Translations under genes and position numbers: made by a program
Source: an uncultured Pseudomonadales bacterium
GTDB taxonomy: Bacteria; Pseudomonadota; Gammaproteobacteria; Pseudomonadales; Cellvibrionaceae
Length of the DNA stretch: 64,000 nucleotides
Direction of reading: 5' to 3'
Assembly: GCA_947487765.1 (NCBI GenBank)
Contig: CANKXO010000007.1
Location: 22,180 to 86,179, forward strand
Notes under the pieces: model-generated
The model's database searches: none
What the model was told of the DNA's origin: nothing
The model's input: the letters and a program-made list of their open reading frames with translations, nothing else
Part shown: positions 29,313-45,874 of the stretch, in pieces
Layout of the letters: every line of letters begins with the position of its first letter
Numbering within the stretch: the stretch's first letter is position 1

Positions 29313-29358
29313 AAAGGACTTAGCCTTTTCTTTCACCTCTTTCCTCATTTTTAATTTA

Positions 29359-29432: not shown

Positions 29433-29441
29433 GTTTACATC

Positions 29442-29593: not shown

Positions 29594-29601
29594 AATTTAT
29601 T

Positions 29602-29917: not shown

Positions 29918-30211
29918 ATGAGACTTGCTATAACGCGATCAGGTTTTTATAACGCTGATCTTTATTGCGCTGATACTCGTACAGCTAAAAGAGTGTTGCG
30001 TGAAAAAAATATTTCCATATTGGCTATCGACTATTATCTAGTTGGCCAGGGAAATGGTTGCGATATTATTGATTGGGCTAAAAGAAATGCAGTTTTGCCT
30101 AATTTTATCGTTGTTATTGAACGTAATCGCAACAAACGAGCCTTATTATCGAATACATTACGAAATATAGGTTATCGCTCTGGTGATGATACTACCTTTA
30201 TAAGGCATTAA
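29918..30211 (+). CDS. Hypothetical small protein (97 aa), alternating beta/alpha pattern (receiver/Rossmann-like?)
   Basis: RBS aaaggagg 7 nt before ATG 29918; MRLAITRSGFYNADLY...ISILAIDYYL...NFIVVIERN; the longer tracked ORF from 29795 lacks an RBS. Confidence 0.5.
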   Translation: MRLAITRSGFYNADLYCADTRTAKRVLREKNISILAIDYYLVGQGNGCDIIDWAKRNAVLPNFIVVIERNRNKRALLSNTLRNIGYRSGDDTTFIRH

Positions 30212-30250
30212 ATTTAGTTAAAGCGACCACTATGATTAATTGAGAATAGG

Positions 30251-30814: not shown

Positions 30815-30834
30815 CTATTAAGCCACCCACATAT

Positions 30835-30862
30835 TTGGAATACAGGTATTAACCTGTATTCC
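30835..30862 (+). terminator. Strong hairpin after the HNH gene (11-bp stem, weak U-tract)
   Basis: ggaatacaggt-atta-acctgtattcc. Confidence 0.5.
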
Positions 30863-30991
30863 ATACCGATGTTTATACGTATGTTGGCGAAACAGCGGCT
30901 CTGGTTCTGAATGCCAGGCTGGCACAGTCATGTTTTATGTCCTGTGTACCGATTCACTAACACGTTAAACAGTATGCTCTGAAAAAGCATA

Positions 30992-31064
30992 GTTTTTGTA
31001 GCTCATAGGGTAGAGCAATCGACTCATAATCGATGGGTAGCAGGTTCGATTCCTGCCTCAAACA
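30992..31064 (+). tRNA. Degenerate tRNA-Met (CAT)-like gene (weak acceptor 5/7, no CCA)
   Basis: D gctc/gagc, anticodon atcga-ctCATaa-tcgat, perfect T-arm gcagg-ttcgatt-cctgc. Confidence 0.4.
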
Positions 31065-31084
31065 CAGTCAGTTTTAATAAACTG

Positions 31085-31127
31085 AAGGAAAAGCCGAGAG
31101 GCTGAGGTTCGAATCCTCATTTGGTCT
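31085..31127 (+). other. Isolated tRNA 3'-half fragment (variable arm + T-arm + 3' acceptor strand)
   Basis: gccgagaggc...tgagg-ttcgaat-cctca-tttggtc with no upstream 5' partner. Confidence 0.45.
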
Positions 31128-31424
31128 ACTAAACCAAATATAAAACAAGAGGCTCATAGCAACGTAATGCTGTTATAGATTATGTTGCGTTGACATTAAT
31201 ACCGTTAATGATGGGTTAAGGTATTGCGTAGTAAATAATAAGTTTACCTCACTATCAACAGCTAAGGATGGTGTCCTAGGGATGGGGATAATCAAGAGTG
31301 ATTAGGTTAGTGTGGAGCAACCGCTGTATTTGTCTACCCATTACATTTAAGTTATTTACCGTACTCATGGCAAATGGGCCTCGCCATTATAGTCATTGGA
31401 AGAAATAAATAAGGGAGAATAATA

Positions 31425-32576
31425 ATGATTCTTTGGAAAACAATCGATATTGCGGAACATGAACGTGTATTACTTTATGTCCGTGATCAATTTAAACAAG
31501 TGCTAGGCCCAGGTCGGCATCGTGTCTCGACCTTGAAGGGAAAAGTTCGCCAGGAAACCTATGATATTACCGAAGTAGTATTCAGGCATCCTAAAGAAAA
31601 ATTTTTGCTGTCACACTACCCAGAAAAACTGGCAATGCACCTTGAGCAGTTTGACTTAAAAGATACTGAAGTGGGCTTGTTATATCGAAATGGCCATTTA
31701 ATGAATGTGTTGGCACCTGGTAGTTTATTTACAGTTTGGAAAGGTGTTGAGGATATTCGTGTTGACGTTATCGATATTAATAACCACTATCAGATAGAAG
31801 AGTCTTTAATTGGCTTATTGGGGCGAGGCATTAAAATTGGTCAAAGCCGAGAAGTCGTTAATGCGATTGCTTATGCAGAGGTAGTTGATGAGCATGTAGG
31901 TTTATTGCTGGTTAACGGTAAGCTAGAAAAGATCTTGCAACCGGGTAGTTACGGCTTCTGGAAATATAACCGTTCAATTGCGGTTAAAATGCTTGATCTT
32001 CGTTTACAAGCAATGGAGGTTAGTGGCCAAGAGATTCTGACCAAAGATCGCGTGAGTTTGCGTATTAACTTAACTGGTAGTTATAAAATTAAAGATCCTC
32101 AAATTGTTGCCTCTAAGGTGAATGATTACGCAGGTTTTATCTATCGTGAGTTGCAATTAAGTTTGCGAGAAATTGTAGGCACACAATCATTAGATGGATT
32201 GTTAGAAGATAAAGATGCTTTAAATTCTGTAATTACTCAGAGTACACGAGAAAAATTAGCGGAATACGGTATTCAGTTAATGAGTGTCGGGGTTAAAGAT
32301 ATTATTTTACCTGGTGAAATGAAGCAGATTCTGAATCGAGTAGTAGAGGCGCAAAAAGAGGCTGAAGCTAATTTGATTAAGCGTCGTGAGGAAACTCAGG
32401 CAATGCGTTCATTACATAATGCTGCCAAGATGATGGAAAACAACCCTGTGTTGTTACGTTTAAAGGAATTAGAAGCATTAGAAAGAGTGACTGGGAAAAT
32501 CGATAAGATTTCTGTCTATGGTGGCCTTGATAGTGTTCTTAATGACTTGGTAAAACTGGCGCCGGTCAAAACCTAA
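31425..32576 (+). CDS. SPFH/band-7 domain protein (cytoplasmic, duplicated N-terminal beta-domain)
   Basis: SPFH core TKDRVSLRINLTGSYKIKDPQIVASKV...QLMSVGVKDIILPGEMKQILNRVVEAQKEAEANLIKRREETQAM; no N-terminal TM. Confidence 0.7.
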   Translation: MILWKTIDIAEHERVLLYVRDQFKQVLGPGRHRVSTLKGKVRQETYDITEVVFRHPKEKFLLSHYPEKLAMHLEQFDLKDTEVGLLYRNGHLMNVLAPGSLFTVWKGVEDIRVDVIDINNHYQIEESLIGLLGRGIKIGQSREVVNAIAYAEVVDEHVGLLLVNGKLEKILQPGSYGFWKYNRSIAVKMLDLRLQAMEVSGQEILTKDRVSLRINLTGSYKIKDPQIVASKVNDYAGFIYRELQLSLREIVGTQSLDGLLEDKDALNSVITQSTREKLAEYGIQLMSVGVKDIILPGEMKQILNRVVEAQKEAEANLIKRREETQAMRSLHNAAKMMENNPVLLRLKELEALERVTGKIDKISVYGGLDSVLNDLVKLAPVKT

Positions 32577-32580
32577 AGAA

Positions 32581-32611
32581 AGCTGCTAGGTTATTTAGCA
32601 GCTTTCTTTGA
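32581..32611. terminator. Bidirectional terminator hairpin between the convergent SPFH and RT genes
   Basis: aaagctgcta-ggttatt-tagcagcttt (10-bp perfect stem). Confidence 0.6.
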
Positions 32612-32749
32612 TGAGAAGTTTACCTTTTAAATGACTGTTTCATGCAATGATGAAACAATAGCAATATCGAACATCATTTGTTATTAATGAGTTAATTTTT
32701 TTATAATTGAATGCTAGGGTTGAAGTTCATAAGATGTTTTTATTGAGCG

Positions 32750-34531
32750 CTAGCGAAAAGATACAATCAAAAATATAAGTACAGCAATTGCCGCAAAAAT
32801 CATTACGCGAGCGAAGGGTTGCATAGAATCTGTATTAGATGCATCCGATAGCCATGGTGATTGAGATTCTTTCTGTTGTTGTGACTTAGTTTCTTCCTTT
32901 TTTGTTTGTTTTTTTGCGGTCGCTATTTGTTTAAGCTCTTCTGTAGTATTCTCTTTAACAGGTGGTGCTGGTGGCTCAGCTTGCCACCAGTTTTCGCGTG
33001 GTGCTTCACCGGCAGCGGCCTTTAAGCGTAAAAGTTTATTATTTAATTTGCCAATGCGACTTGGATTAACTTGATAACTGTATTTTTGTTTTAGTTGTAC
33101 TATTTGCTTTTGTAAAGGAATGCCCTTGCTAGGGTTAACCATTGCGACAAAGTTGGCGTAACCTTCTATGGAGCACAATAAATTGCTACTGCTATTGTGA
33201 GAACGATGAGCCCAGTGCTTACCCTCTAGCCCGCTTTTGTCAATTTGATGTAGTAAGGCTCTGAAGCGCTTTAAGGTCTTGCGATCAACGCTAAGGTTAT
33301 TATTCACTACCACGCCGGTCACTTCTTGTTTTTTATGCTTGCGCATAATGCGTGTTTTTTCGGGGTGAACAATAAAACCTTCATCCTTAATAATACTATG
33401 ACAACGCCACAATAGTTTTTTTACAATGCTGTCGTCAATATTCTGTGGATTAATATCATCGCCCTTGTTGGAGCTTGCCGAAAAAGTAACATCGTCAGCA
33501 TATCGCGTATAAGTAAAGCCTAATTTTTTAGCCATCCCTTGTAAGCGAGCATCCAATTTTCTACAGATGATATTGCTAATATTAGGGCTAGTTGGCGCTC
33601 CTTGCGGTAAAAAGCGCTCTCCGTTACTAACAAACCAAGACTGACTATCTAGTTCAACCTCCTGTGTATTCGCTTCGGTGCAAAGTAAGGCTAGTACTGT
33701 TGCAATGTGTTCACTGTAACCTAGAGCTTTAAACATCCCCTTAACTCTTGGATAGCTAATTGTTGGAAAGAAGTTTTTAAGGTCGAGGTTAATAACAATA
33801 TCTTTGCCTACATGAGGCGCAGCATTGGTTACGATAGAGCGCGTGCGTACAAAGCCATGAGCGGCATCATGTAATGCCAGCGGCTCTAAAATATTGGATA
33901 AAACCCAATACTGGGCAAGTTTCAACCGTGGCATAGGGGCAGATATTAGGCGAGTTCCACCGGTTTTCTTGGTCATTTGGAAGCGTTGATAATGACTAAT
34001 CGTGCAGACATCTTTTTGGTAGACTAAAAAACGTAGCTCATTAACGGTAATGCCCATGGCTCTGGCCAACATTTGGCTGTCGTGCAGTAGTGGTAACTGT
34101 TGGGCTTGGAGTTTGTCTTCATCGCTGTTAACTTTTGATAGCCCTATCGATAAACCTTCCCCTACGAAGGTAATAAATTTCTTTTGGATGTCGTACCAAT
34201 TCTTTGCTCGTTGGTATCGTGTTTCATTGCGTTCTTTACGCTTTTCTTCTCTACGAATAAGTGCTTCTTTTTTACGCTGTTTGTGTAACTCCTTTAGTGC
34301 TTGCTCTGGGTCTTGATACAATTGCTGTTGCTTTCCTAATTCACGCAGTTGCTTTTGTAACTGCCCGCGCTTTTCAATAAAGGTTTCTGTTAGTGTTGGC
34401 TGTTCACTATTTTTTGGCCAAAACCCAAGACGTTTCATCTCTGCTAAAATATAAACTTCTTTACCACCTGTTTCGCGTACGCGCTGGTAGAGTTCTTGGC
34501 GGCTTAATTTTTTAGTGCTTTCGTCAGACAT
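32750..34531 (-). CDS. Retron-type reverse transcriptase with a long N-terminal extension and a C-terminal transmembrane anchor
   Basis: RLISAPMPRLKLAQYWVL, NAAPH (NAxxH), NLDLKNFFPTI, QGAPTSP, YADD, VTGVVV (VTG); collinear with Ec86 RT; C-terminus MIFAAIAVLIFLIVSF is hydrophobic after a Lys/Gln-rich low-complexity linker. Confidence 0.85.
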   Translation of the reverse strand: MSDESTKKLSRQELYQRVRETGGKEVYILAEMKRLGFWPKNSEQPTLTETFIEKRGQLQKQLRELGKQQQLYQDPEQALKELHKQRKKEALIRREEKRKERNETRYQRAKNWYDIQKKFITFVGEGLSIGLSKVNSDEDKLQAQQLPLLHDSQMLARAMGITVNELRFLVYQKDVCTISHYQRFQMTKKTGGTRLISAPMPRLKLAQYWVLSNILEPLALHDAAHGFVRTRSIVTNAAPHVGKDIVINLDLKNFFPTISYPRVKGMFKALGYSEHIATVLALLCTEANTQEVELDSQSWFVSNGERFLPQGAPTSPNISNIICRKLDARLQGMAKKLGFTYTRYADDVTFSASSNKGDDINPQNIDDSIVKKLLWRCHSIIKDEGFIVHPEKTRIMRKHKKQEVTGVVVNNNLSVDRKTLKRFRALLHQIDKSGLEGKHWAHRSHNSSSNLLCSIEGYANFVAMVNPSKGIPLQKQIVQLKQKYSYQVNPSRIGKLNNKLLRLKAAAGEAPRENWWQAEPPAPPVKENTTEELKQIATAKKQTKKEETKSQQQKESQSPWLSDASNTDSMQPFARVMIFAAIAVLIFLIVSFR

Positions 34532-34638
34532 CTGCCTGTCTCCCTAATATAAATAAGGATAAATGTTGAGTGTTAAAAAAATGGATAATGATAGTTGTTA
34601 CAAGAACAAATAAAGAAGAGAAGTGCGCAAGATAAAAG

Positions 34639-34868
34639 GGTGCCAGCGTGCTCAATGTTTCCTTCGTAGAGCTCTTAGTACTGGATTGATCAACTCGACG
34701 CGGCACGCCCCTACTATCGCTCATTGACTTCATGGAAGTCATACCGCAATAGCGATAGTAGGGGCTGTGCCGCCCTATGAAGATCAGGCCAGTGACGCGT
34801 GTGTAGTCTATAAACCAGAACGGCGATGCACCGCTCAAATTGCAAGGTAGATAAGTCACGCTGACACC
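34639..34868 (-). ncRNA. Retron msr-msd non-coding RNA (a1/a2 inverted repeats flanking a long msd hairpin)
   Basis: a1 ggtgtcagcgtg (minus strand, plus coords 34857-34868) pairs with a2 cacgctggcacc (34639-34650) over 12-14 bp; about 72-nt near-perfect palindrome at 34701-34772 (cggcacgcccctactatcgct...agcgatagtaggggctgtgccg with inner gacttc-atg-gaagtc). Confidence 0.7.
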
Positions 34869-34931
34869 TGTGCTAGTATAGCAGTGTTGTTAGGTTTTAA
34901 AAGAGCGCTATTAAAATTCTTCATGATCTCT

Positions 34932-36572
34932 TTAACCGTTTGCTAAGGAATATTGTTTTCTGATCGCTAATATATGTTCGCATGGCCCCATGCGCAGTAA
35001 ATTCGTTCGATAAAAATAACAGTCGCAGCTAGCCTCTTTTAAACGTTGATCGCCGTCAATTTTAATCTCAGTGTTCAAATGGTGTCCGTCATCAATGACT
35101 GTTCCTTGAATTTGAGCACCTCTTTCATTTTCTAGCTTATGATGAATTGTCACCAAGTTGGCGGCCACAAATCGAGCAGACTTTTCATCGCGCTCATTAG
35201 CAAAACGCAATGAGTCCATCGGTAAAGGTTGTTGGCTAAGTTCACGGATACGATAAACACTTCCGGCTAAATCATAAAGCACTTGCCCCTGTTGGCTATA
35301 GGCAGCCAATGCAGATTTCACTACTGACTCATCTAAATGCAGTCGTCGTGCCAGTGAGTCACTGGATTCTTGCCATGTCTCTGATAGTGCTTGGTAAACA
35401 CGTTTAAGTGTTACTTCGTCAACATCACCTCTAGGCGCTAATAGATCAAAGTTACCCATTCGTGACCAATCATTTGCTGACCAGCCCGACAAACCTAAGG
35501 TAAATGTCATATCGCCTAAATCGGCAACGTAAAAACTAGGTAAGCCATTACCTAATAGATGTACCGTAAATTTTTTGGCGATAGGGATTAAACGCTCCAA
35601 TATATGCAGGCGACGGCGCCCCCATATACGAATTGATCTAGCGTCATTTCCTGTATAAATGCTTCTGGCTAATATTAATTCTGTGCCCCATGGCTCTAAG
35701 ATAATTTTAATAGGCTCATCTGATGCCAGTTCAAATCGTATTGCCCGAGGGCCTACGCGCTCTCTTTTACGCCGCAACATATAACAAATATTGTGAATAT
35801 CCATTGGGTGCAATGTTAATGTGGTCATGGGTAAGGTCATAGCTGAGCTTACCTGTAAAAAACCACGCACCCAGCTTTCAGGAAGATCAATTTTCTTTTC
35901 GTCAAATTGTTCCTCATGGCTGGTTTGCATACTGAAACCATCGGGGTCAATTGCCAATGCTGTTTGGCGATACTCTCTTATTTTTTGAAATTCGTTGTAT
36001 AAACCTTCCGAGTAATCAATATTTGTGGTGCCGTAAGAAGTATCGGTTATATTATCAAATACGTCATAGCTACAGCTAAGTTTTCCGTAACTTGATTCAT
36101 CTTCAGAAAAACATTCAAAAAAAACTTCGTCGGGATGGACGGTAATTACTGGGTCAAGTACATACCAAGCATCCATATCGGTTTTATAAAGATGTTTGAA
36201 ATATTTGTTCTGAGCTGTATAAAAAGGCCCCATTAATGCTTGGCTTTGCTTGCTAAGTTCAGATAGTTCTTTGCGCACAAGCTCAATTTCGCCTTCCACC
36301 TGTGACTTGCGACCAATAAATTCTGCCAATAGCCGCTCTTCTTCTTCAGCTAGCCAGCGCTCGTATTCGCTGCGATCTTTTGGCTGAAAGCGCATATCAG
36401 AAATCACAACATTGTGTAGTGCCGATATCGCCTCACGAAAAGCTATTTTCTGCTTAAGCTGTCCTACAAAATAAGTAGGTAGGCGCAAACTGTCAGGCAC
36501 AAAAGATACATCTGTACTCGCTGCATTGCTCGCAACATGGCTCTGCCCATGATATCGATAACGAAATTCCAT
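34932..36572 (-). CDS. SWIM zinc-finger protein (retron accessory / putative effector)
   Basis: C-terminal CxCx(n)CxH: EASCDCYFYRTNLLRMGPCEHILAI; 546 aa. Confidence 0.7.
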   Translation of the reverse strand: MEFRYRYHGQSHVASNAASTDVSFVPDSLRLPTYFVGQLKQKIAFREAISALHNVVISDMRFQPKDRSEYERWLAEEEERLLAEFIGRKSQVEGEIELVRKELSELSKQSQALMGPFYTAQNKYFKHLYKTDMDAWYVLDPVITVHPDEVFFECFSEDESSYGKLSCSYDVFDNITDTSYGTTNIDYSEGLYNEFQKIREYRQTALAIDPDGFSMQTSHEEQFDEKKIDLPESWVRGFLQVSSAMTLPMTTLTLHPMDIHNICYMLRRKRERVGPRAIRFELASDEPIKIILEPWGTELILARSIYTGNDARSIRIWGRRRLHILERLIPIAKKFTVHLLGNGLPSFYVADLGDMTFTLGLSGWSANDWSRMGNFDLLAPRGDVDEVTLKRVYQALSETWQESSDSLARRLHLDESVVKSALAAYSQQGQVLYDLAGSVYRIRELSQQPLPMDSLRFANERDEKSARFVAANLVTIHHKLENERGAQIQGTVIDDGHHLNTEIKIDGDQRLKEASCDCYFYRTNLLRMGPCEHILAIRKQYSLANG

Positions 36573-36643
36573 ATTTTTGCCTGAGAAATTTTTCTGAAAA
36601 TTATGAATCTAATGCGTTTTTGTATAATTTTTATATAGCGTTT

Positions 36644-39600
36644 TTAAACACCCAGCGATGCAGGTTGTTTAATGGGTACCTTTTTGGCTGTTAAGGGTGA
36701 TGCTATATCTGGATACAATGATTGTAATTTAAGCATAGCTTTTATCAAAGCGGCTTTATCTTTATGTACCATAGTTAACGAAATTCGTTCCAATAAAGGC
36801 ATTACCATAGTGGCAACACTTATATCTTTTTCTGCTTCTCTTAATAAAAACAGTAGAATCCTATCTTTACAAACGCGACCCTTATTAATTTGTGATAACG
36901 CTGTTGTAAAATAAGCTTGTAATGAAAGTATATGGCTAGGAATACCCGCCGCGTATTCTTCTAAAAAACTGCTGACAAAAAGCTGTACATTATTTGACGG
37001 ATGCTGGCTTAACTTAAGCAAGTATTCTGGGCCATACTCAGCTTTAAAAAAAGATTGTAGTATTTCGCGTCCAAAGCTTTGTACGTCATCTCTGATGCTG
37101 TCGCAAATAAAAATAACAATTTCAGGGCTCCAATCTTCTTGGCTGTATTGTTGTCGAAAAAAATCAAAGCCAAAGGTTCTTGCATCGTCCCAGTTGCTAT
37201 TTAGAATTCGAAGAGCATCACGACTGTATTGTTTAATTTCATCTACATTTTTCTCGTAAGCCTGAAATGCAAACTGCCTGACAGATACATCGCTATGCTG
37301 GCCTAATATTGCCCATTGTTTGACTGAAAATATATCTGCATTACGTTCAGTTAAGGTTATGGCGCCCACTCGTTGAGCACAGATAGATTGTGCCTGTAAT
37401 AAGCGCCATAGCATATCATTGTCTAGTTTCGTTAAATGTGATTGTGCCAATGAAGTAAAAAAGGCAATTAATTCTTCATGTTGCCCAGGCTGCTCTTCAG
37501 ACTTAAATGTCAGCGCTAATAATGTATTTTCAATCTGCTCGGATCCCTGTTGAGAGTTGGTCATTAGGCGGGAAAAAATAGAAAGTAGGGAGGCGCGCTC
37601 TTGAGTATCGCCCTTGCAATACAAGCCGACTAATAAGTCTAATTGTTTGATTAAGTCTTTATCGGCTTGTTTGCCTAGTAATGCAGCACCTATCCCTCTA
37701 ACTTCGGCTGAGGATGAATCATGAATTGCCTGTAATAAGCTGTCGGGAATATCTCCATAAGATATTTTGTGTCCAAGCAATAATTTTGCACCTAATATTT
37801 TTCTGGGTACTTTCTCGTCATGAATTAAACGTTGCAAACTAGTAAGAGGGAAGTGTTTAATTGCATCATTTAGGTTCTCAAGTGCAAAATCGGCCAAATA
37901 CTCTGCATGCTTTTCGCTTAAGTTGCTGTTCTCTAAAAAGATAGAATCAACTATAGCTTGCAATAGTTTCTCAGCATTTCTACCAGAAATCTTTTGCTGG
38001 CAAACAGCCGTTTTAATGTCACTTTGTACATCACTATGAAGAATCAATAGTAGTGATGTTAATAGTGAAATATCATCATTAATTTTGAACCTTAGTAAAG
38101 ATTGCTTACCTAATACTCTAGCCTCAGTCAGCGAGCTACTTAGTAGAGCGATTAATAATTCACTACTTAAATCGTCTTGTTTAATGCGTTCGCGAACAAT
38201 TGCTAGTGCAAATTCACAAGTACTCGCATAGTTGCTGTTCAGTAAAAGAGCTAAATCTACAGGGCTGATTTTCTGGCAAAAACTCGGTTGATTTTCTAAT
38301 ATCCGACGAGCGAAAGGATGAACCAGCTCGCATCGACTTGTTTTTAATAAGCGTAGTGCATGGCTAGGCTTTTGATCCCAAAGTTCAGCAAAGCATTCGG
38401 TACGAGATCCATTTATCAAGGAAGTACCGTCGGTATTCGACTCATCACTTTTTATCCAGACGCGGCCACTAGGTGCAAGTTGATACCCTGGATGATGTTC
38501 GAAGAGGATATGATTTAAGCTTAAGAAGCTGGCAAAAGGGCCATATTCATTGCTGGATATCAACTGGCGTTGCCAATTGTCGCCACTATTATCCCAGCGA
38601 TAAACCTCTGATGTTCGAGGCTTGCTACCATGCTCATCATTAATCGCAAGCAATGATTCTGTTGCCATATCAACATAACGGAGATCACCGGCCTGTCCTA
38701 TACGCCTGAGTACTCGCCAGCTACGACGGCGAAAGTAATCTCGTGTACGATGCGAGAAGGTCAATTTTGCATTGGCCTTTTTCAGTTCTTTAGATGGTTT
38801 AATACTGCCTTCACCGGGAAGCCATGCCCAATCCCAATCATTACGAAAAAATGCGGGTGCTGTTTCTATACGCTGCGCTAATAAGCCAAATACAGACCCG
38901 TCAAGACGTAGCTCGGATGCTTTATAAATTGATCTAATGCCCCGAAAATATCCTGGGGTTAGGGGAATAATAGCCAGTTGACTTAATAATGCTTGATGCA
39001 ATATGGGGTAAGCTAGCGATAGCTGATAACAAAGTACCAATAGCTGATTAGTATTGTTAACGTTGTCACTAGCCCCATGACTGAGCAACGCGCCAAGTTG
39101 CTGATGAGCAGTGCTACTATTTCCTTCCATAACAGCAGATTTAAACTGTGCAGGAAAGTGCTGCCAATGGCTGCCTAACAAGGCTTTGCGCGATGTTTGG
39201 TCGCTGATTAATAGTTGCGATTCAAAGGCTATATGACAAACTTGTGCTTGTTTGTGTTGCCTCAAGGTTTCTAAAACCGCCTTGTGTTGCGTGGCAACCA
39301 TCCGCCCCAAGGCCCAAGCAATAGAGTAATCCTCTAACCAATGGCCTTTCTTAATATAGGGCACAATTGCATTGGCAATAGGTTCACAATCTCGGTGCCC
39401 TAATTCCCCGAGTCGCCATATCATGCGGCTGCGAGATTTAGTCTCTTTTTCATTGGGTAAATGATTGAGTATCTGTTCAATTAGTTTAAAAGGAAAGTCA
39501 TCGGAGGCAAGATTGCTAGAAGGGACGCCTGCAAGTGTAGGCGAGGTAGTAGTAGGGGACTGTTTTGCTTGTTCTCTATCCCAATAGCCTTTATTGACTT

Positions 39601-39820
39601 TGGATACAACAACACTATCAAATAGCTTCTCTGCTTTGCTAAGCTCAACAGCTTCAGGGGTTTTAGTGCCTTCTCTTAATTGATTGCCGCGACGCCCGTA
39701 TCGAAAATTAACGAGATAACGTTCATCTTTTCGGCTTGCTAACTCACATAAATCAACTTCATAAACTTTGTCGGAATTGCCTTCCTGATACACCAATCGA
39801 GATTGCTTGATTAGTCGCAT
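36644..39820 (-). CDS. Large WGR-like + alpha-helical repeat protein (MolR/DUF4132-like), retron accessory
   Basis: N-terminal KVYEVDL...YLVNFRYGRRGNQLREGTKT resembles a WGR domain; the remaining roughly 950 aa are Leu-rich helical repeats. Confidence 0.55.
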   Translation of the reverse strand: MRLIKQSRLVYQEGNSDKVYEVDLCELASRKDERYLVNFRYGRRGNQLREGTKTPEAVELSKAEKLFDSVVVSKVNKGYWDREQAKQSPTTTSPTLAGVPSSNLASDDFPFKLIEQILNHLPNEKETKSRSRMIWRLGELGHRDCEPIANAIVPYIKKGHWLEDYSIAWALGRMVATQHKAVLETLRQHKQAQVCHIAFESQLLISDQTSRKALLGSHWQHFPAQFKSAVMEGNSSTAHQQLGALLSHGASDNVNNTNQLLVLCYQLSLAYPILHQALLSQLAIIPLTPGYFRGIRSIYKASELRLDGSVFGLLAQRIETAPAFFRNDWDWAWLPGEGSIKPSKELKKANAKLTFSHRTRDYFRRRSWRVLRRIGQAGDLRYVDMATESLLAINDEHGSKPRTSEVYRWDNSGDNWQRQLISSNEYGPFASFLSLNHILFEHHPGYQLAPSGRVWIKSDESNTDGTSLINGSRTECFAELWDQKPSHALRLLKTSRCELVHPFARRILENQPSFCQKISPVDLALLLNSNYASTCEFALAIVRERIKQDDLSSELLIALLSSSLTEARVLGKQSLLRFKINDDISLLTSLLLILHSDVQSDIKTAVCQQKISGRNAEKLLQAIVDSIFLENSNLSEKHAEYLADFALENLNDAIKHFPLTSLQRLIHDEKVPRKILGAKLLLGHKISYGDIPDSLLQAIHDSSSAEVRGIGAALLGKQADKDLIKQLDLLVGLYCKGDTQERASLLSIFSRLMTNSQQGSEQIENTLLALTFKSEEQPGQHEELIAFFTSLAQSHLTKLDNDMLWRLLQAQSICAQRVGAITLTERNADIFSVKQWAILGQHSDVSVRQFAFQAYEKNVDEIKQYSRDALRILNSNWDDARTFGFDFFRQQYSQEDWSPEIVIFICDSIRDDVQSFGREILQSFFKAEYGPEYLLKLSQHPSNNVQLFVSSFLEEYAAGIPSHILSLQAYFTTALSQINKGRVCKDRILLFLLREAEKDISVATMVMPLLERISLTMVHKDKAALIKAMLKLQSLYPDIASPLTAKKVPIKQPASLGV

Positions 39821-40200
39821 AGCTTCCTTAAACTCTTTTATTTTTTGATAAACTTATTTTTTTGAGTATAGCATTATCCTAATAATGGACAAGACTACAT
39901 GGCTATATTATATCTAGAGTTTACACTCGCTCTATCGTAAAGACTATGCTTCTATATACTTCATTCACGTTTTATTAGATAGCAATTATAACCTTTACCC
40001 CTTTCCCTGACGTGATTGTAAAGTGTTAATTTCATATTTGGGTTTACGGCGGTGCTATAATTTTGGTTGCTGTGTCAGGAAGTGTCGCGTTATTTTCAAT
40101 TCTAAAGGTTATCTTGATGAATGTGTTACCTAGCCCGATGACAAATATGTAATTACTATATTTTAAACAATTTTTAAATGCTTAACTGGTAGTAAAGTAT

Positions 40201-41460
40201 ATGCAATTAAATAATAAAAAAGTTTACTTAGTTGGCGGAGCTGTCCGTGACGAACTATTGAATCGCCCAGTTTCAGATCGAGACTGGGTGGTGATTGGTG
40301 TGACTCCAGAAATGTTGATTAAGCAAGGCTATCGGCAAATCGGTAGTGACTTTCCTTGCTTTTTGCATCCTGAAACCAAAGATGAATATGCACTGGCACG
40401 TACGGAGAAAAAATCAGGAAGCGGCCATACAGGGTTTGTGTGTGATTTTAGTCCTGAGGTAACTCTCGAAGAAGATTTATCTCGGCGCGACCTCACCATC
40501 AATGCCATTGCTAAAACAGTAGAGGGTGAATATGTTGATCCTTATGGAGGCAGAGAAGATTTAGAGAATCGAATATTGCGCCATGTATCAGATGCATTTG
40601 CTGAAGACCCATTGCGTGTGTTACGCGTTGCTCGTTTTGCCGCTCGCTACGCAGAGTTAGGTTTTACGGTACACCCAAGTACATTAGCCTTAATGGCTCA
40701 GTTAGTCAGTTCTGGTGAACTATCAGAATTAACACCAGAGCGAGTCTGGAAAGAAATGTCTCGTGCATTAACAGAGCCTCGTCCTAGTGAGTTCTTTCGT
40801 GTGCTTCGTGCCTGTGGTGCTTTGTCGGTACTATTACCCGAAGTAGATTGCTTATTCGGTGTTCCTCAGCCACCCCAACATCATCCTGAAATTGATACCG
40901 GCGATCATGTAATGATGGTGGTTGATATCGCTAAAGAGCGCTTTGATTCTATTAATATCACTTGGGCTGCCTTAATGCATGATTTAGGAAAAGGGCTGAC
41001 GCCTGAAGAGGAGTGGCCCAAGCATATCCGTCATGAAATTAAAGGTGTGCCATTAGTTGAGGCTGTTTGCGAGCGTTATAAAGTTCCGCGTGATTTTAAA
41101 ACATTAGCAATGTTAGTTTCTGAGCACCATTTGCGTTGCCATAAATTATTAGAGATGAGACCAAAATCCATTATGCGCTTATTAGAAGCGCTGGATGCTT
41201 TTAGGCGGCCAGAGAGGGTTAAATATTTTGCGCAAGCCTGCGAAGCCGACGCCAGAGGTCGCTTAGGTTTAGAAGATAGAGATTACCCACAATCGTCACT
41301 ATTAATAAAATGCGGTGAAGTGGGGAAGGATATAGATATTAAGCCTTTACTGGATGAAGGCTACCAAGGCTTGAAGCTGGCGGAACAGATTCGCCGTTTA
41401 CGACTAGGGGCGATTAAGAGGTTTATGGCAAATTATCGAAAAGAAATATTAGGGAAATAA
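40201..41460 (+). CDS. cca: CCA-adding tRNA nucleotidyltransferase with HD domain
   Basis: LVGGAVRDELLNRPVSDRDWVV, TERKSGSGHTGF, RRDLTINAIA, LRVLRVARFAARY, HHPEIDTGDH, collinear with E. coli Cca. Confidence 0.9.
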   Translation: MQLNNKKVYLVGGAVRDELLNRPVSDRDWVVIGVTPEMLIKQGYRQIGSDFPCFLHPETKDEYALARTEKKSGSGHTGFVCDFSPEVTLEEDLSRRDLTINAIAKTVEGEYVDPYGGREDLENRILRHVSDAFAEDPLRVLRVARFAARYAELGFTVHPSTLALMAQLVSSGELSELTPERVWKEMSRALTEPRPSEFFRVLRACGALSVLLPEVDCLFGVPQPPQHHPEIDTGDHVMMVVDIAKERFDSINITWAALMHDLGKGLTPEEEWPKHIRHEIKGVPLVEAVCERYKVPRDFKTLAMLVSEHHLRCHKLLEMRPKSIMRLLEALDAFRRPERVKYFAQACEADARGRLGLEDRDYPQSSLLIKCGEVGKDIDIKPLLDEGYQGLKLAEQIRRLRLGAIKRFMANYRKEILGK

Positions 41461-41464
41461 TAAG

Positions 41465-42367
41465 ATGAGCAGTAAAACTCAGCATTTAATTAAACAAGGT
41501 TTACTCAAGTCTCCGCCTAAGTTTTTGGAAACCGGGGTACAGTATGAAGTGGTTATGGGCTCTATTGCCTATGGTGTTGCTGAAGATCACTCTGATATGG
41601 ATATTTATGGTTTTGCCATTCCACCACGAGACTGGGTATTTCCTCACTTAAGAGGAGAAATTTCAGGTTTTGATGAATCTGGCCCTCAATTTGAGCAAGT
41701 GCAGCAACATCATATGTTGGATAAGTCTGCACGTGGAGGTAAAGGCAAGGAGTATGATTTGGTCATCTATTCGATTATTAAATACTTTCGCTTACTGATG
41801 GATAATAACCCTAATATTATTGATTCTTTATTTGTGCCGCGCAATTGTGTGCTTTATAGCACTGCTGTTGGTGAGATGGTCCGCGAAAACCGTCATCTAT
41901 TCTTGCATAAAGGTTGTTGGGCAAAGTTCAAAGGTTATGCTTATTCACAAGTACATAAAATGCGAACAAAGGTTCCAGAAGGTGGCCGTCAAGCGATCAT
42001 TGATGAATATGGTTATGATGTAAAATTTGCCTATCATGTTGTTCGGTTACTGAATGAAGTCGAGCAAATATTAATTGAAAAAGACCTTGATTTGGCACGA
42101 AATAAAGAGCAATTAAAATCGATACGCCGTGGCGAATGGACACAGCAAGCCATTGAAGAATATTTTACTAATAAAGAAAAACAACTTGAGCAAACTTATC
42201 TGGACAGTGCCTTGCCTGCGTTACCGGATAAAGCAGCTATTAAAAAGTTATTGTTGGAATGCTTGGAGCATCATTACGGCTCATTATCTGAATGTATTGT
42301 TCAGGAAGATGAGGCTTTGATCGCTATTCGAGAAATTGAAACGATAGTGCAACGCTTGAAAAAGTAA
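41465..42367 (+). CDS. Pol-beta superfamily nucleotidyltransferase (predicted RNA-repair NTase)
   Basis: GS-x10-D-x-D motif MGSIAYGVAEDHSDMDIYGF; start is 4 nt after the cca stop (likely co-transcribed). Confidence 0.6.
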   Translation: MSSKTQHLIKQGLLKSPPKFLETGVQYEVVMGSIAYGVAEDHSDMDIYGFAIPPRDWVFPHLRGEISGFDESGPQFEQVQQHHMLDKSARGGKGKEYDLVIYSIIKYFRLLMDNNPNIIDSLFVPRNCVLYSTAVGEMVRENRHLFLHKGCWAKFKGYAYSQVHKMRTKVPEGGRQAIIDEYGYDVKFAYHVVRLLNEVEQILIEKDLDLARNKEQLKSIRRGEWTQQAIEEYFTNKEKQLEQTYLDSALPALPDKAAIKKLLLECLEHHYGSLSECIVQEDEALIAIREIETIVQRLKK

Positions 42368-42864
42368 GCCTTTATTTTTTAATTGAACCACTTTGTATTT
42401 GTTAACCTATAAAAATACTCATTAATATAGTTGTAGTTAATTTTTGTAAGGAAATGTTATAAAAATTATGAATAAAGATATTGATATATAATTTTAATAT
42501 GACTATAGTGCGCGCAGTTTTTACAAATCACCTTTAATCAATACTCTACAGGAGGCTCAAGTATGTTGTATCTAAATAATCAAATCGCATTGTTGGGTTT
42601 GTCTGTATCTTGTTCTTATAGCTAACATTTTTGTTAACGCTATAGCTATCTTTCAGATAAATCCTCTTAGCTAAACGTCTTAACTGTACGTTATAGGTAG
42701 TTTTGCGTAATTTTTTAAGCTAATTCTTGTTGGTCAAATTCTATCGACCATACATTTGCATTTTTTTATGCGGTTAGCGATTAATCTGTATCGCCTTTTG
42801 TTTCAACTCGAAAATATTTTTTGAGGGGGCAATGTCGTGCCTAAAAACATGAGTAGAAATTTTA

Positions 42865-44091
42865 ATGGACACTTATATTAAAAAAATTAATACGCTGGTT
42901 GATCGGCAGGCGAGAGTTGTTATCTTTGATGATAATTGGCTTGAAGATTCTGCTGTTGAGCAGTTGAAAAGAACAATGGAATTAGACGGCATGTTGAGAG
43001 GTATCGGTATGCTTGACCTGCACCCAGGTAAGGGGCAACCAATTGGTGCAGCGTTTGTAACGTGTAATGCCATCTATCCTCACCTTGTCGGGAGTGATAT
43101 CGGTTGTGGTATGGGATTATGGGATTTAGATATTCCAGTCCGAAAAGTTAAATTGGATAAATGGGAGAAGCAATTAGTTGGCCTTGATGAATTTTGGGAT
43201 GGATATCCAAATGATCGGTTACAGAAAAAAGATATTGATACAACTGATACTTTTTTATTATCTGAAAACGGTAAGTTAGGAACCATCGGTGGTGGTAATC
43301 ATTTTGCAGAGCTACAGAAAATTGACAGTATTATTGATTCTGTTGCGTTTAAGCAGTCAGGTCTCAATCATCAGTCTGTTAAATTACTAGTGCATAGTGG
43401 TTCGAGAGGTCTGGGCCAAAAAATTCTCAGGCGCTATGTTGATGATTTTGGCTCAAGCGCTATTTCGACAAATGAACAACCTGAACTTGGTCAACATTAT
43501 ATTCAGCAACATAACTACGCTATCAGATGGGCTGAAGTGAATCGTGATGTCATTGCAGACCGGTTCTGTGAACAGCTCAAAGCGCAGCGGAGATTGGTAT
43601 TGGATGTTGCTCACAACAGGGTTGACCCATTGGCTGAGGAATACGCTGAAGCGATGGGGTTATTAACAAAGAGGCTGCCAGGAAATGGCAACAAAAAATA
43701 CTGGATACACCGTAAAGGCGCAAGCCCAACTAATGAAGGGTTGGTCATGATACCGGGGTCTCGTGGTAGCTTGAGCTACCTTGTTAAGCCTCGTTTGTCG
43801 AATATTCATAGTCTTTCTCAAGGTGGTTTTTCATTGGCCCATGGTGCAGGACGTAAATGGAAGCGAAGTGATGTTCGAGGACGATTAGAAAGCCGCTATA
43901 AAGTAAAAGATTTGGAAAAAACAGCCTTGGGTAGTCGAGTTATTTGTAAGCAACGCGACTTACTGTATGAGGAAGCACCTCAGGCTTACAAAAATATAAG
44001 TCATGTAATAAGTGATTTGGTTGGCGCTGGTCTTGTCGATATTGTTGCAACATTTAAACCGTTACTGACTTATAAGACACGGAGGGTATAA
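42865..44091 (+). CDS. rtcB: RtcB-family RNA ligase, second copy (RtcB2-type, paired with PrfH)
   Basis: GSDIGCGMG, GGGNHFAELQ, HSGSRGLG, AHGAGRKW. Confidence 0.85.
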   Translation: MDTYIKKINTLVDRQARVVIFDDNWLEDSAVEQLKRTMELDGMLRGIGMLDLHPGKGQPIGAAFVTCNAIYPHLVGSDIGCGMGLWDLDIPVRKVKLDKWEKQLVGLDEFWDGYPNDRLQKKDIDTTDTFLLSENGKLGTIGGGNHFAELQKIDSIIDSVAFKQSGLNHQSVKLLVHSGSRGLGQKILRRYVDDFGSSAISTNEQPELGQHYIQQHNYAIRWAEVNRDVIADRFCEQLKAQRRLVLDVAHNRVDPLAEEYAEAMGLLTKRLPGNGNKKYWIHRKGASPTNEGLVMIPGSRGSLSYLVKPRLSNIHSLSQGGFSLAHGAGRKWKRSDVRGRLESRYKVKDLEKTALGSRVICKQRDLLYEEAPQAYKNISHVISDLVGAGLVDIVATFKPLLTYKTRRV

Positions 44092-44093: not shown

Positions 44094-44789
44094 ATGAAAA
44101 TAGTGAAAGGAGAAAATGAAAAAAATATTGCATGGTTGCAAGTAACCTCTGGTCAAGGGCCGAAAGAATGCGCTTGGGTTGTCGCACGATTAGAGCCGAT
44201 CATTTTGCAAGAGGCTAAAAAGGCTGATCTGTCTGCTGAGCGCATTGAAGCTTTGGCTTTTGATAAATTGCTACGGAAGCAAAATCTTATCGAGACTGAT
44301 GCTTATTTATCGATATTAATCCGCTTGCAAGGGAGGGGAGTCGACGAGTTTGTTCAATCTTGGCAGGGAACGATTAAATGGCAAGGCGAAAGCCCCTATC
44401 GTCCCAAGCATAAGCGATTTAACTGGTTTGTCGGTGTTGCAACACTTGCTATACCAGAGAAGCAAAACGTTGAGTTAAGTAGTTTATCTAAAGATATTGA
44501 TTTTGAATCAATGCGAACAAAGGGGCCAGGTGGGCAACATGTAAATAAAACGAATAGCGCGATTCGTGCGACGCATCGACCAACAGGTTTGCAAGTACGG
44601 GTTGAAACGGACCGTTCTCAGCATAGGAACAAGCAAATAGCATTGGAGCGTTTGCAAATGTTGCTAGCTCAAAGAGGTAGTAATGAGAAAAAATCAATAG
44701 AGCATGCACGCTGGCTGCAACACTATGATGTGAAAAGGGGCAGTCCTACACGCATATTTTATGGGAAAGGATTTACCGAAAACCATTGA
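44094..44789 (+). CDS. prfH: Peptide-chain-release-factor homologue PrfH
   Basis: GGQ motif RTKGPGGQHVNKTNSAIRATHRPTGLQV, short RF lacking full codon-recognition domains, immediately downstream of rtcB2. Confidence 0.8.
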   Translation: MKIVKGENEKNIAWLQVTSGQGPKECAWVVARLEPIILQEAKKADLSAERIEALAFDKLLRKQNLIETDAYLSILIRLQGRGVDEFVQSWQGTIKWQGESPYRPKHKRFNWFVGVATLAIPEKQNVELSSLSKDIDFESMRTKGPGGQHVNKTNSAIRATHRPTGLQVRVETDRSQHRNKQIALERLQMLLAQRGSNEKKSIEHARWLQHYDVKRGSPTRIFYGKGFTENH

Positions 44790-44917: not shown

Positions 44918-45874
44918 ATGAAACAGGAAGAGTTAAGCGAGGTGTTGGATTGCCTAGGGAATGAAAGAACACTTTTTTACTACTTTAAAGATCGCTATTG
45001 CTTAGATTTAATTGGCTGGTATATGGATAAAACAAAAAGTCGGTCATTGTTGATTAGGGATTTAAATAAAAGCGGCTTGAAAAATATTCTTCAGAAACCA
45101 GTCATGAGAGAGATTATTAAAAATTGCGGCCATGGTTTTTTGACAAAAGAAATCATAAAAGCCTTCTGGTTCCATGACTTTTTAACGTTCACTTTAACAT
45201 TGGATCATTGGGGAGAAGGGGATAGAGGTTATGACCAAACCTCCAGAAACCAAAAGAATTTAGTGTTGCAGCTGAATTTTGACAATAAACATACGAGTGA
45301 ATATCAGCGTTTATTAAAGCCTGACGACCACTATGGGCCTTTTGAGTGCTGGTGTCACCCTGTTAGGCAGGATGCTAAAAAGACGATGTCGTGGGTAAGA
45401 ATGGATTTCGACTTTACAACCAATGAAGCGCTAATCGAAGAGGTTCAAAATGATTGGTTGCGACAGGCAAATGGAGGATTAACTCGTGTTAAAAAAAGTT
45501 TATCGAGAAAATCAACGCTTAAGCCAGGTGATATTGTTAGCGGCATTCATTGTGAATATAAAGACTTGGAATATTATGTTGAAGAAGTACTGAAGCCTTA
45601 TCGAAAGCTATGGGCAGAAGCTTCTATGCTGGCAGCCATACAATTTATACGTAATGAGTTAGGTATTAATACGATTTACTATCATAGCTTCAGTACAGGT
45701 AATAAGTTGAAGAAGGTTTATGGTTTGCCACCTAGATCAATGTATACACAATTGCCTAAAAAATTTGGTTTTGAATTGACTGAAGAAGCACCTGAGTTTT
45801 TAGCAAGAGATAAACATGCTAAGCGTTACATTAAGGCCATTGAAAACCCGCGATGGTATCGTATGGCGTTATAA
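44918..45874 (+). CDS. Hypothetical protein (318 aa) downstream of prfH
   Basis: intact ORF with no recognisable motif by eye. Confidence 0.5.
   Translation: MKQEELSEVLDCLGNERTLFYYFKDRYCLDLIGWYMDKTKSRSLLIRDLNKSGLKNILQKPVMREIIKNCGHGFLTKEIIKAFWFHDFLTFTLTLDHWGEGDRGYDQTSRNQKNLVLQLNFDNKHTSEYQRLLKPDDHYGPFECWCHPVRQDAKKTMSWVRMDFDFTTNEALIEEVQNDWLRQANGGLTRVKKSLSRKSTLKPGDIVSGIHCEYKDLEYYVEEVLKPYRKLWAEASMLAAIQFIRNELGINTIYYHSFSTGNKLKKVYGLPPRSMYTQLPKKFGFELTEEAPEFLARDKHAKRYIKAIENPRWYRMAL

What the first reader, a model, noticed from the sequence alone, without database searches (positions are those of the whole stretch)
40201..42367. Island-borne CCA-adding enzyme translationally coupled to a pol-beta nucleotidyltransferase
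A full-length class-II CCA enzyme with an HD domain sits in an accessory island; the organism presumably has a core cca elsewhere. The gene 4 nt downstream encodes a 300-aa protein with the GS...D.D pol-beta NTase signature, the superfamily of class-I CCA enzymes and minimal NTases. The pair could rebuild or modify tRNA 3' ends (after CCA-targeting nuclease damage, or on the tRNA-like RNAs of this island), or tag RNAs.
Basis: partly seen in the sequence, partly recalled or inferred. Interest (0 to 1): 0.55.

Follow-up and report, generated by a model that had tools for sequence, protein, structure and literature searches.

The report
CCA enzyme plus RlaP-like RNA-repair pair
The two genes are real: an E. 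coli-type CCA-adding/repair enzyme followed 4 nt later by an RlaP-family RNA 3'-end nucleotidyltransferase, sitting inside a mobile, phage-like island of tRNA and ribosome repair genes, a kind of system already predicted by comparative genomics and partly tested in the lab.

Summary
40201-41460 encodes a 419-aa multifunctional CCA addition/repair protein (NCBIfam equivalog 621 bits, cutoff 451; all head and HD motifs intact). Four nt downstream, 41465-42367 encodes a 300-aa Pol-beta nucleotidyltransferase. That protein is a divergent member of Pfam RlaP (RNA-ligase-associated Pol-beta), a family recently shown to add 1-2 nucleotides to RNA 3'-OH ends.

The pair lies in an RNA-repair island: a tRNA array, RtcB1, an HNH endonuclease and Band-7 upstream, and RtcB2-PrfH downstream. 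A type XIII retron has inserted between band7 and cca.

In 78 bacterial loci the 300-aa protein is next to a canonical RlaP in 44, and next to a Cca or a Cca-type HD domain in 10-12. In 76 phage contigs a Cca-like gene lies within 7 kb in 8. Several unrelated Cca lineages are involved.

Most likely role: the Cca HD domain unblocks damaged 3' ends, then the two nucleotidyltransferases restore lost nucleotides and the CCA tail. This is inferred, not shown.

Whether the genome has a second, core cca could not be tested. The finding is a new member of a known kind, of moderate interest.

The parts
40201..41460 (+). cca: multifunctional CCA addition/repair enzyme (class-II NTase head, RNA-binding neck, HD phosphohydrolase)
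   Evidence: NF008137 621.5 bits against a cutoff of 451. Motifs GGAVRD, DRD, RRD, EDPLR and HD are all present.
41465..42367 (+). RlaP-like nucleotidyltransferase ('RlaPL'), a divergent 300-aa paralogue of canonical RlaP
   Evidence: Pfam RlaP 69.6 bits and phrog_388 152.7 bits. hhalign against canonical RlaP gives 75% probability, E 2.5e-5, over the NTase core. D44, D46 and D98 are invariant in 88 sequences. The AF2 model (pLDDT 91.5) shows an N-terminal NTase domain plus a C-terminal helical domain.
42368..42864 (+). Conserved non-coding leader of rtcB2-prfH: sigma70-like promoter 42481-42509, SD AGGAGG 42550-42555, 20-codon uORF 42563-42625
   Evidence: The region is 70-83% identical at DNA level to L002, L003 and L013. 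The SD and the uORF length are kept in L004 and L005. There is no remnant of the canonical RlaP gene that occupies the preceding position in L003 and L013.
42865..44091 (+). RtcB2 (release-factor-H-coupled RtcB RNA ligase)
   Evidence: TIGR03073 423 bits (cutoff 271.8) and NF007153 487 bits (cutoff 407).
44094..44789 (+). PrfH (peptide chain release factor H)
   Evidence: TIGR03072 207.6 bits (cutoff 166.65). It starts 2 nt after the rtcB2 stop.
44918..45874 (+). Conserved 318-aa protein of unknown function that follows prfH
   Evidence: Present after prfH (or after RlaP in L006) in 7 loci. No significant Pfam, NCBIfam, PHROG or PADLOC hit; the only PDB sequence hit is a weak UvrC match (E 0.0064).
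31425..32576 (+). Band-7/SPFH protein, the gene directly upstream of cca in relatives
   Evidence: In L002 it ends 58 nt before cca.
32564..40228 (-). 7.66-kb insertion carrying a type XIII retron: RT 32750-34531, 111-aa ORF 34524-34859, SWIM 34932-36572, WGR/HEAT 36644-39820
   Evidence: PADLOC RT_XIII 623 bits, SWIM_XIII 771 bits, WGR_XIII 1030 bits. Absent from L002, where 96 bp separate band7 and cca.
26497..31135 (+). tRNA array (14 tRNA genes plus insert-bearing tRNA-like genes) with RtcB1 28116-29312, a cREC-like ORF ending at 30211, and HNH 30251-30814
   Evidence: The cREC hit is weak (E 0.0015, below cutoff).

Best explanation
cca and the RlaP-like gene form the 3'-end healing and nucleotide-restoring module of a horizontally mobile, phage-like island that repairs the translation apparatus after ribonuclease attack. 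The proposed steps are as follows. (1) Ribotoxins such as colicins, CDI toxins and anticodon nucleases cut tRNA or rRNA, leaving 2',3'-cyclic phosphate ends, and some trim further nucleotides. (2) The HD domain of Cca removes the cyclic or 3' phosphate to give a 3'-OH. (3) The RlaP-like enzyme adds back one or two lost nucleotides, and the Cca head rebuilds the CCA tail. (4) Where a break must be sealed, RtcB1 or RtcB2 ligates it; PrfH frees damaged stalled ribosomes; the tRNA array supplies spare tRNAs. Status of the steps: steps 1 and 4 and the two enzyme activities are shown for homologues in other organisms. That they act here, and act in this order as a pair, is inference from gene linkage.
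For: Family assignments: assign Cca, RlaP, RtcB2 and PrfH, and one search places the Cca and the RlaP-like protein in phage NTase families. RlaP biochemistry: it needs an RNA 3'-OH, adds 1-2 NMP, prefers the broken-tRNA 5' half, and its authors note that its product is incompatible with RtcB's need for a 3'-phosphate (PMC12776372). The E. coli-type Cca HD domain removes 2',3'-cyclic phosphate (PMC6961547). RtcB2-PrfH repairs colicin-E3-cut ribosomes (PMC9304027). Linkage of the RlaP-like protein in 78 bacterial loci: canonical RlaP is adjacent in 44, mostly with -4 to +20 nt spacing. Other recurrent neighbours are RtcB/RtcA/RtcR, Hen1, Band-7 and PrfH. Cca is adjacent in 10 of 78 bacterial loci and lies within 7 kb in 8 of 76 phage contigs. 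The Cca lineages involved are unrelated: the gamma clade is 55-95% identical to the window protein, a Deltaproteobacterium 29%, a Planctomycete 32%, and phages 28-39%. In two genomes (L007, L069) the partner is only a Cca-type HD domain with no NTase head, which points to the phosphoesterase as the linked function. The best cultured-phage homologue sits beside an aminoacyl-tRNA hydrolase, a metallophosphoesterase and five tRNAs. Identities of Cca and the RlaP-like protein fall together across loci (95/95, 86/89, 84/90, 80/83, 76/82, 71/78, 65/75%). In an NJ tree all RlaPL-linked Ccas fall in one clade apart from the core Ccas of Halioxenophilus, Microbulbifer and Pseudomonas.
Against: There is no experiment on this subfamily. 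It is only distantly related to the characterised Pseudomonas RlaPs (25% identity over 80 aligned columns). Cca is a neighbour in only about 10-15% of loci, so most members work without it. CCA addition to nicked tRNA is about 1000-fold slower according to PMC6961547, so Cca may serve only true 3' termini. After RlaP extension the end is a 3'-OH, which RtcB cannot join, so how the pair feeds the ligases is unresolved. The NJ tree has no support values, and one member of the 'island' clade (P0172) lies in a non-island context.
Confidence: 0.6

Rival explanations
1. This is simply the organism's only, housekeeping cca. Repair genes have gathered next to it, and it has no island-specific role.
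For: It passes the equivalog model for the ordinary enterobacterial-type Cca. No second Cca from the 4.38-Mb chromosome of the closest relative appears in the best 120 hits of two searches. Core Cca of a related genus is 65% identical, not far below island-linked ones. In other genomes the island sits beside rpoD, about 6 kb from the core cca cluster, which makes capture of a core gene plausible.
Against: Island-linked Ccas from different families cluster together and co-vary with the RlaP-like protein. Islands lacking Cca exist in Microbulbifer (L005); other Microbulbifer genomes have a separate core-type Cca, not tested in that strain. In L025 the island and a core cca coexist. The searches list only the best 120 hits, and Cca evolves fast, so absence of a second hit is not informative.
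Confidence: 0.15
2. The pair matures the island's own RNAs. Cca adds CCA to island tRNAs that lack it, and the RlaP-like enzyme finishes the ends of the insert-bearing tRNA-like transcripts.
For: 2 of the 14 island tRNA genes lack an encoded CCA: Met 27493-27567 and Met 30992-31065. Several tRNA-like genes carry inserts of about 55-90 nt. tRNA arrays accompany the RlaP-like gene in many bacterial and phage loci.
Against: 12 of 14 tRNAs encode CCA, and any host Cca could serve the other two. Most RlaP-like loci have no tRNA array within 10 kb. This reading is not exclusive of repair.
Confidence: 0.1
3. The 300-aa protein is a defence or toxin-type nucleotidyltransferase rather than a repair enzyme. 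It would be a signal-making enzyme like Hailong HalB, or a tRNA-blocking MenT/MNT-HEPN type.
Against: There is no PADLOC hit. TM-scores are low (0.33-0.52) and identity is 8-12%. No HalA-like or antitoxin partner is present. The retron is a recent insertion absent from L002. Conserved neighbours are RNA ligases, RtcA, Hen1 and canonical RlaP.
Confidence: 0.05
4. The 300-aa protein is an antibiotic or other small-molecule nucleotidyltransferase.
Against: There is no sequence-family match to any resistance NTase in Pfam or NCBIfam. Structural identity is 2-12%. The family is abundant in large phages and is tied to RNA-repair genes.
Confidence: 0.02

Closest known systems
E. coli Cca (multifunctional CCA addition/repair protein, class-II NTase plus HD domain)
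   Same: Same domain order and all catalytic motifs. Above the equivalog cutoff.
   Different: Lies in a mobile repair island, tightly coupled to an RlaP-like gene. Belongs to a clade of island-linked copies 58-65% identical to core enzymes of related genera. Whether it is a second copy is unknown.
RlaP (PF10127): PfRlaP and PaRlaP of Pseudomonas, PMC12776372
   Same: Pol-beta NTase core with GS, DxD and a third Asp. N-terminal NTase domain plus C-terminal helical domain. Linked to RNA ligase genes.
   Different: A separate subfamily: 300 aa rather than about 255. It has an insert of about 20 residues in the NTase domain and only 25% identity to canonical RlaP over the core. It falls in a different PHROG (388 against 14344). 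It usually sits beside a canonical RlaP rather than replacing it. No activity data exist.
RtcB2-PrfH ribosome rescue and repair operon (PMC9304027; PMC6514570)
   Same: The same two genes in the same order, 500 nt downstream, above the TIGR03073 and TIGR03072 cutoffs.
   Different: E. coli has a bare two-gene operon. Here it carries added genes: Cca, the RlaP-like NTase and a 318-aa protein. PMC6514570 mentions an uncharacterised Pol-beta NTase accreted to PrfH-RtcB, said not to be specifically RlaP-related; it may or may not be this family (not checked).
RNA-repair gene sets of jumbo phages (tRNAs, RNA ligases, RlaP, CCA-adding enzyme; PMC7824862)
   Same: Same combination of parts. The RlaP-like protein is 43-73% identical to proteins on phage contigs of up to 578 kb, some with Cca directly upstream and tRNA arrays nearby.
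   Different: Here the set is chromosomal and bacterial, and is joined to RtcB2-PrfH and Band-7.
Long tRNA arrays with a conserved HNH gene and co-regulated rtcB in cyanobacteria (PMC8421152)
   Same: A tRNA array with an HNH endonuclease and RtcB. In that work it is proposed to help survival of translational stress.
   Different: A gammaproteobacterial host; the ligase is inside the array. That paper does not mention Cca/CCA-adding enzyme (the one 'CCA' text match is a culture-collection strain name), a nucleotidyltransferase or PrfH.

Membership tests
Multifunctional CCA addition/repair protein (NF008137; class-II tRNA nucleotidyltransferase with HD domain) | Whole-protein score above the curated equivalog cutoff | tested here: met
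   621.5 bits against a cutoff of 451, covering 2-405 of 409 model positions.
Multifunctional CCA addition/repair protein (NF008137; class-II tRNA nucleotidyltransferase with HD domain) | Head-domain catalytic and templating motifs (GGxVRD, DxD, RRD, EDxxR) and the HD motif | tested here: met
   GGAVRD at 12, DRD at 26, RRD at 95, EDPLR at 135, HHPE at 227, HD at 260. The motif definitions are from my own knowledge of class-II enzymes.
Multifunctional CCA addition/repair protein (NF008137; class-II tRNA nucleotidyltransferase with HD domain) | Adds C-C-A to tRNA and hydrolyses 2',3'-cyclic phosphate | not testable with these tools
   Needs an enzyme assay.
RlaP (Pfam PF10127) | Score above the Pfam gathering cutoff | tested here: met
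   69.6 bits against 23, E 4.5e-19, but covering only profile positions 19-209 of 249.
RlaP (Pfam PF10127) | Three conserved acidic residues of the Pol-beta NTase site, plus GS | tested here: met
   G32, S33, D44, D46 and D98 are invariant in 88 sequences and align with the ESGS...DSDYD...LD motif of canonical RlaP.
RlaP (Pfam PF10127) | N-terminal NTase domain fused to a C-terminal helical domain | tested here: met
   The AF2 model (pLDDT 91.5, pTM 0.85) has strands and helices in residues 25-132 and then helices 134-299. This matches the description of the PfRlaP crystal structure. No RlaP structure is in the PDB copy for direct superposition.
RlaP (Pfam PF10127) | Gene linked to RNA ligase or other RNA-repair genes | tested here: met
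   RtcB2 lies 500 nt downstream in the window. RtcB, RtcA, RtcR, Hen1 and PrfH recur in the 78 loci.
RlaP (Pfam PF10127) | Same subfamily as the characterised Pseudomonas enzymes (canonical RlaP of about 255 aa) | tested here: not met
   The profile-profile match reaches only 75% probability and 25% identity over 80 columns. The proteins fall in different PHROGs. Canonical RlaP scores 249 bits on the Pfam model against 69.6 here.
RlaP (Pfam PF10127) | Adds 1-2 NMP to RNA 3'-OH | not testable with these tools
   Needs an enzyme assay.
RtcB2-PrfH module | Both proteins above the TIGR03073 and TIGR03072 cutoffs, with adjacent genes | tested here: met
   423.1 bits against 271.8, and 207.6 against 166.65. 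The genes are 2 nt apart.
Antibiotic nucleotidyltransferases (ANT(4'), Lnu/LinB, AAD) | Sequence-family match to a resistance NTase | tested here: not met
Hailong HalB and other defence NTases | Match to a defence-system model, plus a partner effector gene | tested here: not met

The most novel reading that the evidence does not exclude
The RlaP-like enzyme and the Cca HD domain form a dedicated, ligase-independent pathway for deep repair of tRNA acceptor ends. The HD domain would unblock a cyclic-phosphate end left by a toxin that cuts inside or beyond the CCA. The RlaP-like enzyme would restore the discriminator or stem nucleotides that Cca cannot add, and Cca would then rebuild the CCA. This would also supply the missing end-healing step that the RlaP authors flagged as unresolved. 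A related possibility is that the 300-aa protein works as a heteromer with canonical RlaP, its neighbour in 44 of 78 loci.
Probability: 0.2. Interest if true: 0.6.

Novelty: new member of a known kind. Interest (0 to 1): 0.35.

Why it matters
RlaP enzymes have only just been given an activity, and how their 3'-OH products fit with cyclic-phosphate damage and with RtcB is an open problem. This locus and its relatives show that a large, uncharacterised RlaP subfamily exists. It comprises 413 clusters at 50% identity with E <= 1e-30 and is common in big phages. It repeatedly recruits a Cca, or just the Cca HD phosphoesterase, from unrelated lineages. That gives a concrete hypothesis testable with purified proteins for the order of end healing and nucleotide restoration. 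It also gives a compact natural operon for studying how bacteria and phages survive tRNA- and ribosome-cutting toxins. It does not reveal a new kind of system.

Tried and rejected
1. Exact-sequence look-ups of the window's Cca and NTase found no record, so the source genome could not be fetched.

2. A second cca was sought by matching contig lengths in two homologue searches. One used the island Cca as query and one a Sessilibacter Cca. Only the island copy of the 4.38-Mb relative appeared, but the lists stop at 57-58% identity, so this is inconclusive.

3. The first structure model (18 sequences) was poor in the NTase domain, and its fold search was meaningless. It was redone with 88 sequences.

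4. Sequence searches of the PDB with the NTase, its profile and the canonical RlaP profile found nothing, so the PfRlaP structure is not available for comparison.

5. A pseudogene remnant of canonical RlaP in the 497-nt gap after the NTase gene was looked for and not found.

6. Rfam scans of 39800-46300 and of the tRNA array found no known RNA family beyond tRNAs. A YrlA match at 24 bits against a cutoff of 69 was dismissed.

7. The 318-aa protein gave no significant hit in any library searched; the only match was a weak PDB sequence hit to UvrC, E 0.0064.

8. The key comparative paper (Burroughs and Aravind 2016, NAR) is not held in the library. What it says is taken second-hand from papers that cite it.

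9. Base composition gives no island signal.
Full report
**Observation**

The first, 40201-41460, is a 419-aa protein with a PolyA_pol head, the PolyA_pol_RNAbd neck and an HD domain. It scores 621.5 bits on NCBIfam NF008137, 'multifunctional CCA addition/repair protein', whose equivalog cutoff is 451. GGAVRD, DRD, RRD, EDPLR and the HD dyad are all present. Its stop codon is followed by TAAG and then the ATG of 41465-42367. That 300-aa protein has GS(x10)DxD, as reported. A third acidic residue, D98, is invariant with D44 and D46 in 88 homologues.

**What the 300-aa protein is**

- It is above threshold for Pfam PF10127, RlaP ('RNA repair pathway DNA polymerase beta family'): 69.6 bits against a cutoff of 23. 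It also matches phage family phrog_388 at 152.7 bits.
- It is not a canonical RlaP. A profile-profile comparison with canonical RlaPs from related loci aligns only the NTase core (75% probability, E 2.5e-5, 25% identity). The alignment shows an insert of about 20 residues.
- With 88 sequences AlphaFold gives a confident model (pLDDT 91.5, pTM 0.85). It has an N-terminal NTase domain and a C-terminal helical domain. This is the architecture described for the PfRlaP crystal structure.
- At 50% clustering the subfamily has 413 representatives at E <= 1e-30, and 4976 at E <= 0.001.

**Surroundings in the window**

- Downstream lies a conserved 497-nt leader, then RtcB2 (TIGR03073 423 bits), PrfH (TIGR03072 208 bits) and a conserved 318-aa protein with no recognisable domain.
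- Upstream on the same strand lies a tRNA array of 14 genes plus insert-bearing tRNA-like genes. It contains a second RtcB, a weak cREC-like ORF, an HNH endonuclease and a Band-7 protein.
- Between band7 and cca, on the other strand, sit an RT, a SWIM protein and a WGR/HEAT protein. These are a type XIII retron by PADLOC (623, 771 and 1030 bits).
- Comparison with the 95%-identical relative L002 shows that window 24314-32563 and 40229-46147 are collinear with it. The intervening 7.66 kb, 32564-40228, is an insertion; L002 has 96 bp there.
- The window is therefore chromosomal DNA of a Cellvibrionaceae-like gammaproteobacterium carrying an RNA-repair island with a retron dropped into it.

**Distribution**

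A scan of species-representative genomes found 253 relatives of the 300-aa protein and returned 80 loci at 57-95% identity. They come from Gammaproteobacteria, Desulfobacterales, Acidobacteriota, Planctomycetota and others. The counts below are for the 78 of those loci that could be analysed.

- Canonical RlaP. The commonest neighbour is a canonical RlaP (256 aa, 249 bits on the Pfam model). It is adjacent in 44 loci, usually overlapping by 4 nt or within 20 nt.
- Other repair genes. RtcB, RtcA, RtcR, Hen1, Band-7, HNH, PrfH and the 318-aa protein recur. tRNA arrays accompany several loci.
- Missing canonical RlaP in the window. The next-closest relatives, L003 and L013, read Cca, RlaP-like, canonical RlaP, RtcB2, PrfH, 318-aa. 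The window and L002 lack the canonical RlaP, with no remnant left.
- Cca in bacterial loci. A Cca is adjacent in 10 loci. Eight are from a clade of marine gammaproteobacteria with 55-95% Cca identity. One is a Deltaproteobacterium with a 29%-identical, Bacillus-type HD-bearing Cca. One is a Planctomycete, where the partner is an HD-only protein. In L007 too the partner is only the Cca-type HD domain.
- Phage contigs. The family appears in 76 phage loci, many on contigs of 150-580 kb. Eight have a Cca-like gene within 7 kb, two of them directly upstream, and tRNA arrays are frequent.
- Cultured phage. The best cultured-phage match, Rhizobium phage RHph_I1_18, has the gene next to an aminoacyl-tRNA hydrolase, a metallophosphoesterase and five tRNAs.

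Repeated recruitment of unrelated Cca lineages, and of the bare HD domain, is the main evidence that the linkage is functional rather than accidental.

**Is this Cca an extra copy?**

This could not be settled.

- For an accessory copy:
  - In an NJ tree, all Ccas known to share a contig with the RlaP-like gene fall in one clade. The core Ccas of Halioxenophilus (queC-cca-nadA context), Microbulbifer and Pseudomonas lie outside it.
  - Cca and RlaP-like identities fall in step across loci.
  - Islands without Cca exist (L005, L025, L068).
  - In L025 the island lies downstream of rpoD and a core cca sits 6.3 kb beyond, in the order rpoD-dnaG-yqeY-tsaD-plsY-folK-SDR-cca.
- Against, or neutral:
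  - The tree has no support values.
  - One clade member is in a non-island context.
  - The difference between island-linked copies (down to about 65-70% identity) and a related core enzyme (65%) is small.
  - No second Cca from the relative's 4.38-Mb chromosome showed up in the best 120 hits of two searches, which stop at 57-58% identity.
- The rpoD-proximal insertion site seen in three genomes (L004/L082, L025, L068) suggests how a core cca could have been captured.

**Mechanism**

- Shown elsewhere:
  - Pseudomonas RlaPs add one or two NMPs to RNA 3'-OH ends. They prefer the 5' half of a broken tRNA and cannot use 3'-phosphate ends.
  - The HD domain of E. coli-type Cca removes 2',3'-cyclic phosphate, and Cca repairs CCA tails.
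  - RtcB2 and PrfH rescue and reseal colicin-E3-cut ribosomes.
  - Jumbo phages combine tRNAs, ligases, RlaP and CCA-adding enzymes.
  - Long tRNA arrays with HNH and rtcB respond to translational stress in cyanobacteria.
- Inferred here:
  - The HD domain makes the 3'-OH that the RlaP-like enzyme needs.
  - The RlaP-like enzyme and the Cca head then restore trimmed nucleotides and the CCA.
  - For 3'-terminal damage this needs no ligase.
- Unresolved: how an extended 3'-OH end would be handed to RtcB, which needs a 3'-phosphate. The RlaP authors raise the same problem.
- Transcription: the cca-rlaPL pair is probably transcribed separately from rtcB2-prfH. The latter has its own conserved sigma70-like promoter, a strong SD and a 20-codon upstream ORF.

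**Verdict**

However, the locus is a member of an already recognised class of RNA-repair islands. The new points are incremental. There is a distinct, widespread RlaP paralogue subfamily. It habitually pairs with canonical RlaP. It recurrently associates with Cca or a Cca-type HD domain.

Noticed in passing
window 42368-42864: The leader of rtcB2-prfH is conserved at 70-83% DNA identity in relatives. It holds a sigma70-like promoter (TTGATA-17-TATAGT, 42481-42509), a strong SD (AGGAGG, 42550-42555) and a 20-codon upstream ORF (42563-42625, MLYLNNQIALLGLSVSCSYS). The SD, the ORF length and a Tyr/Phe-Ser-stop ending are kept even in distant loci (L004, L005) where the peptide differs. It may be a translation-sensing leader for a ribosome-repair operon.
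   Followed up: partly
window 32564-40228 (- strand genes 32750-39820): A type XIII retron (RT, 111-aa ORF, SWIM, WGR/HEAT; PADLOC 623, 771 and 1030 bits) is a 7.66-kb insertion between band7 and cca. It is absent from the 95%-identical relative L002.
   Followed up: yes
window 26497-31135: The tRNA array has an RtcB gene inside it and several tRNA-like genes interrupted by inserts of about 55-90 nt (for example 29441-29592, 26497-26658, 26750-26912). Two of the inserts resemble each other by eye in the sequence read (not aligned). Two tRNA-Met genes (27493-27567, 30992-31065) lack an encoded CCA. No Rfam family other than tRNA matches.
   Followed up: partly
L004/L082, L025, L068: Related repair islands sit directly downstream of rpoD and a tRNA-Met in three other genomes, apparently a preferred insertion site. 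In L025 the core cca lies 6.3 kb beyond rpoD in the cluster rpoD-dnaG-yqeY-tsaD-plsY-folK-SDR-cca.
   Followed up: partly
L007 9178-9945; L069 11259-12206; L003 7429-7995; L013 7419-7985: Stand-alone Cca-type HD-domain proteins without the nucleotidyltransferase head lie next to or near the RlaP-like gene.
   Followed up: partly
L152-L155, L158, L160, L161 (phage contigs); representatives P0277, P0284, P0286 and others: Many homologues of the RlaP-like protein are split, or are enlarged near residue 170. Phage genes are interrupted by 0.2-1.2 kb. Many representative proteins are about 350-360 aa or 650-745 aa with two matched stretches. This suggests introns, or mini- and full-size inteins, at one conserved site.
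   Followed up: no
window 44918-45874: A 318-aa protein follows prfH in seven loci. It has strongly conserved motifs (NLVLQxNF, HPV, LIEExQxDW, YYHSFxTG) but no significant match in Pfam, NCBIfam, PHROGs, PADLOC or PDB sequences (only a weak UvrC hit, E 0.0064). It is split into two ORFs in L004/L082.
   Followed up: partly
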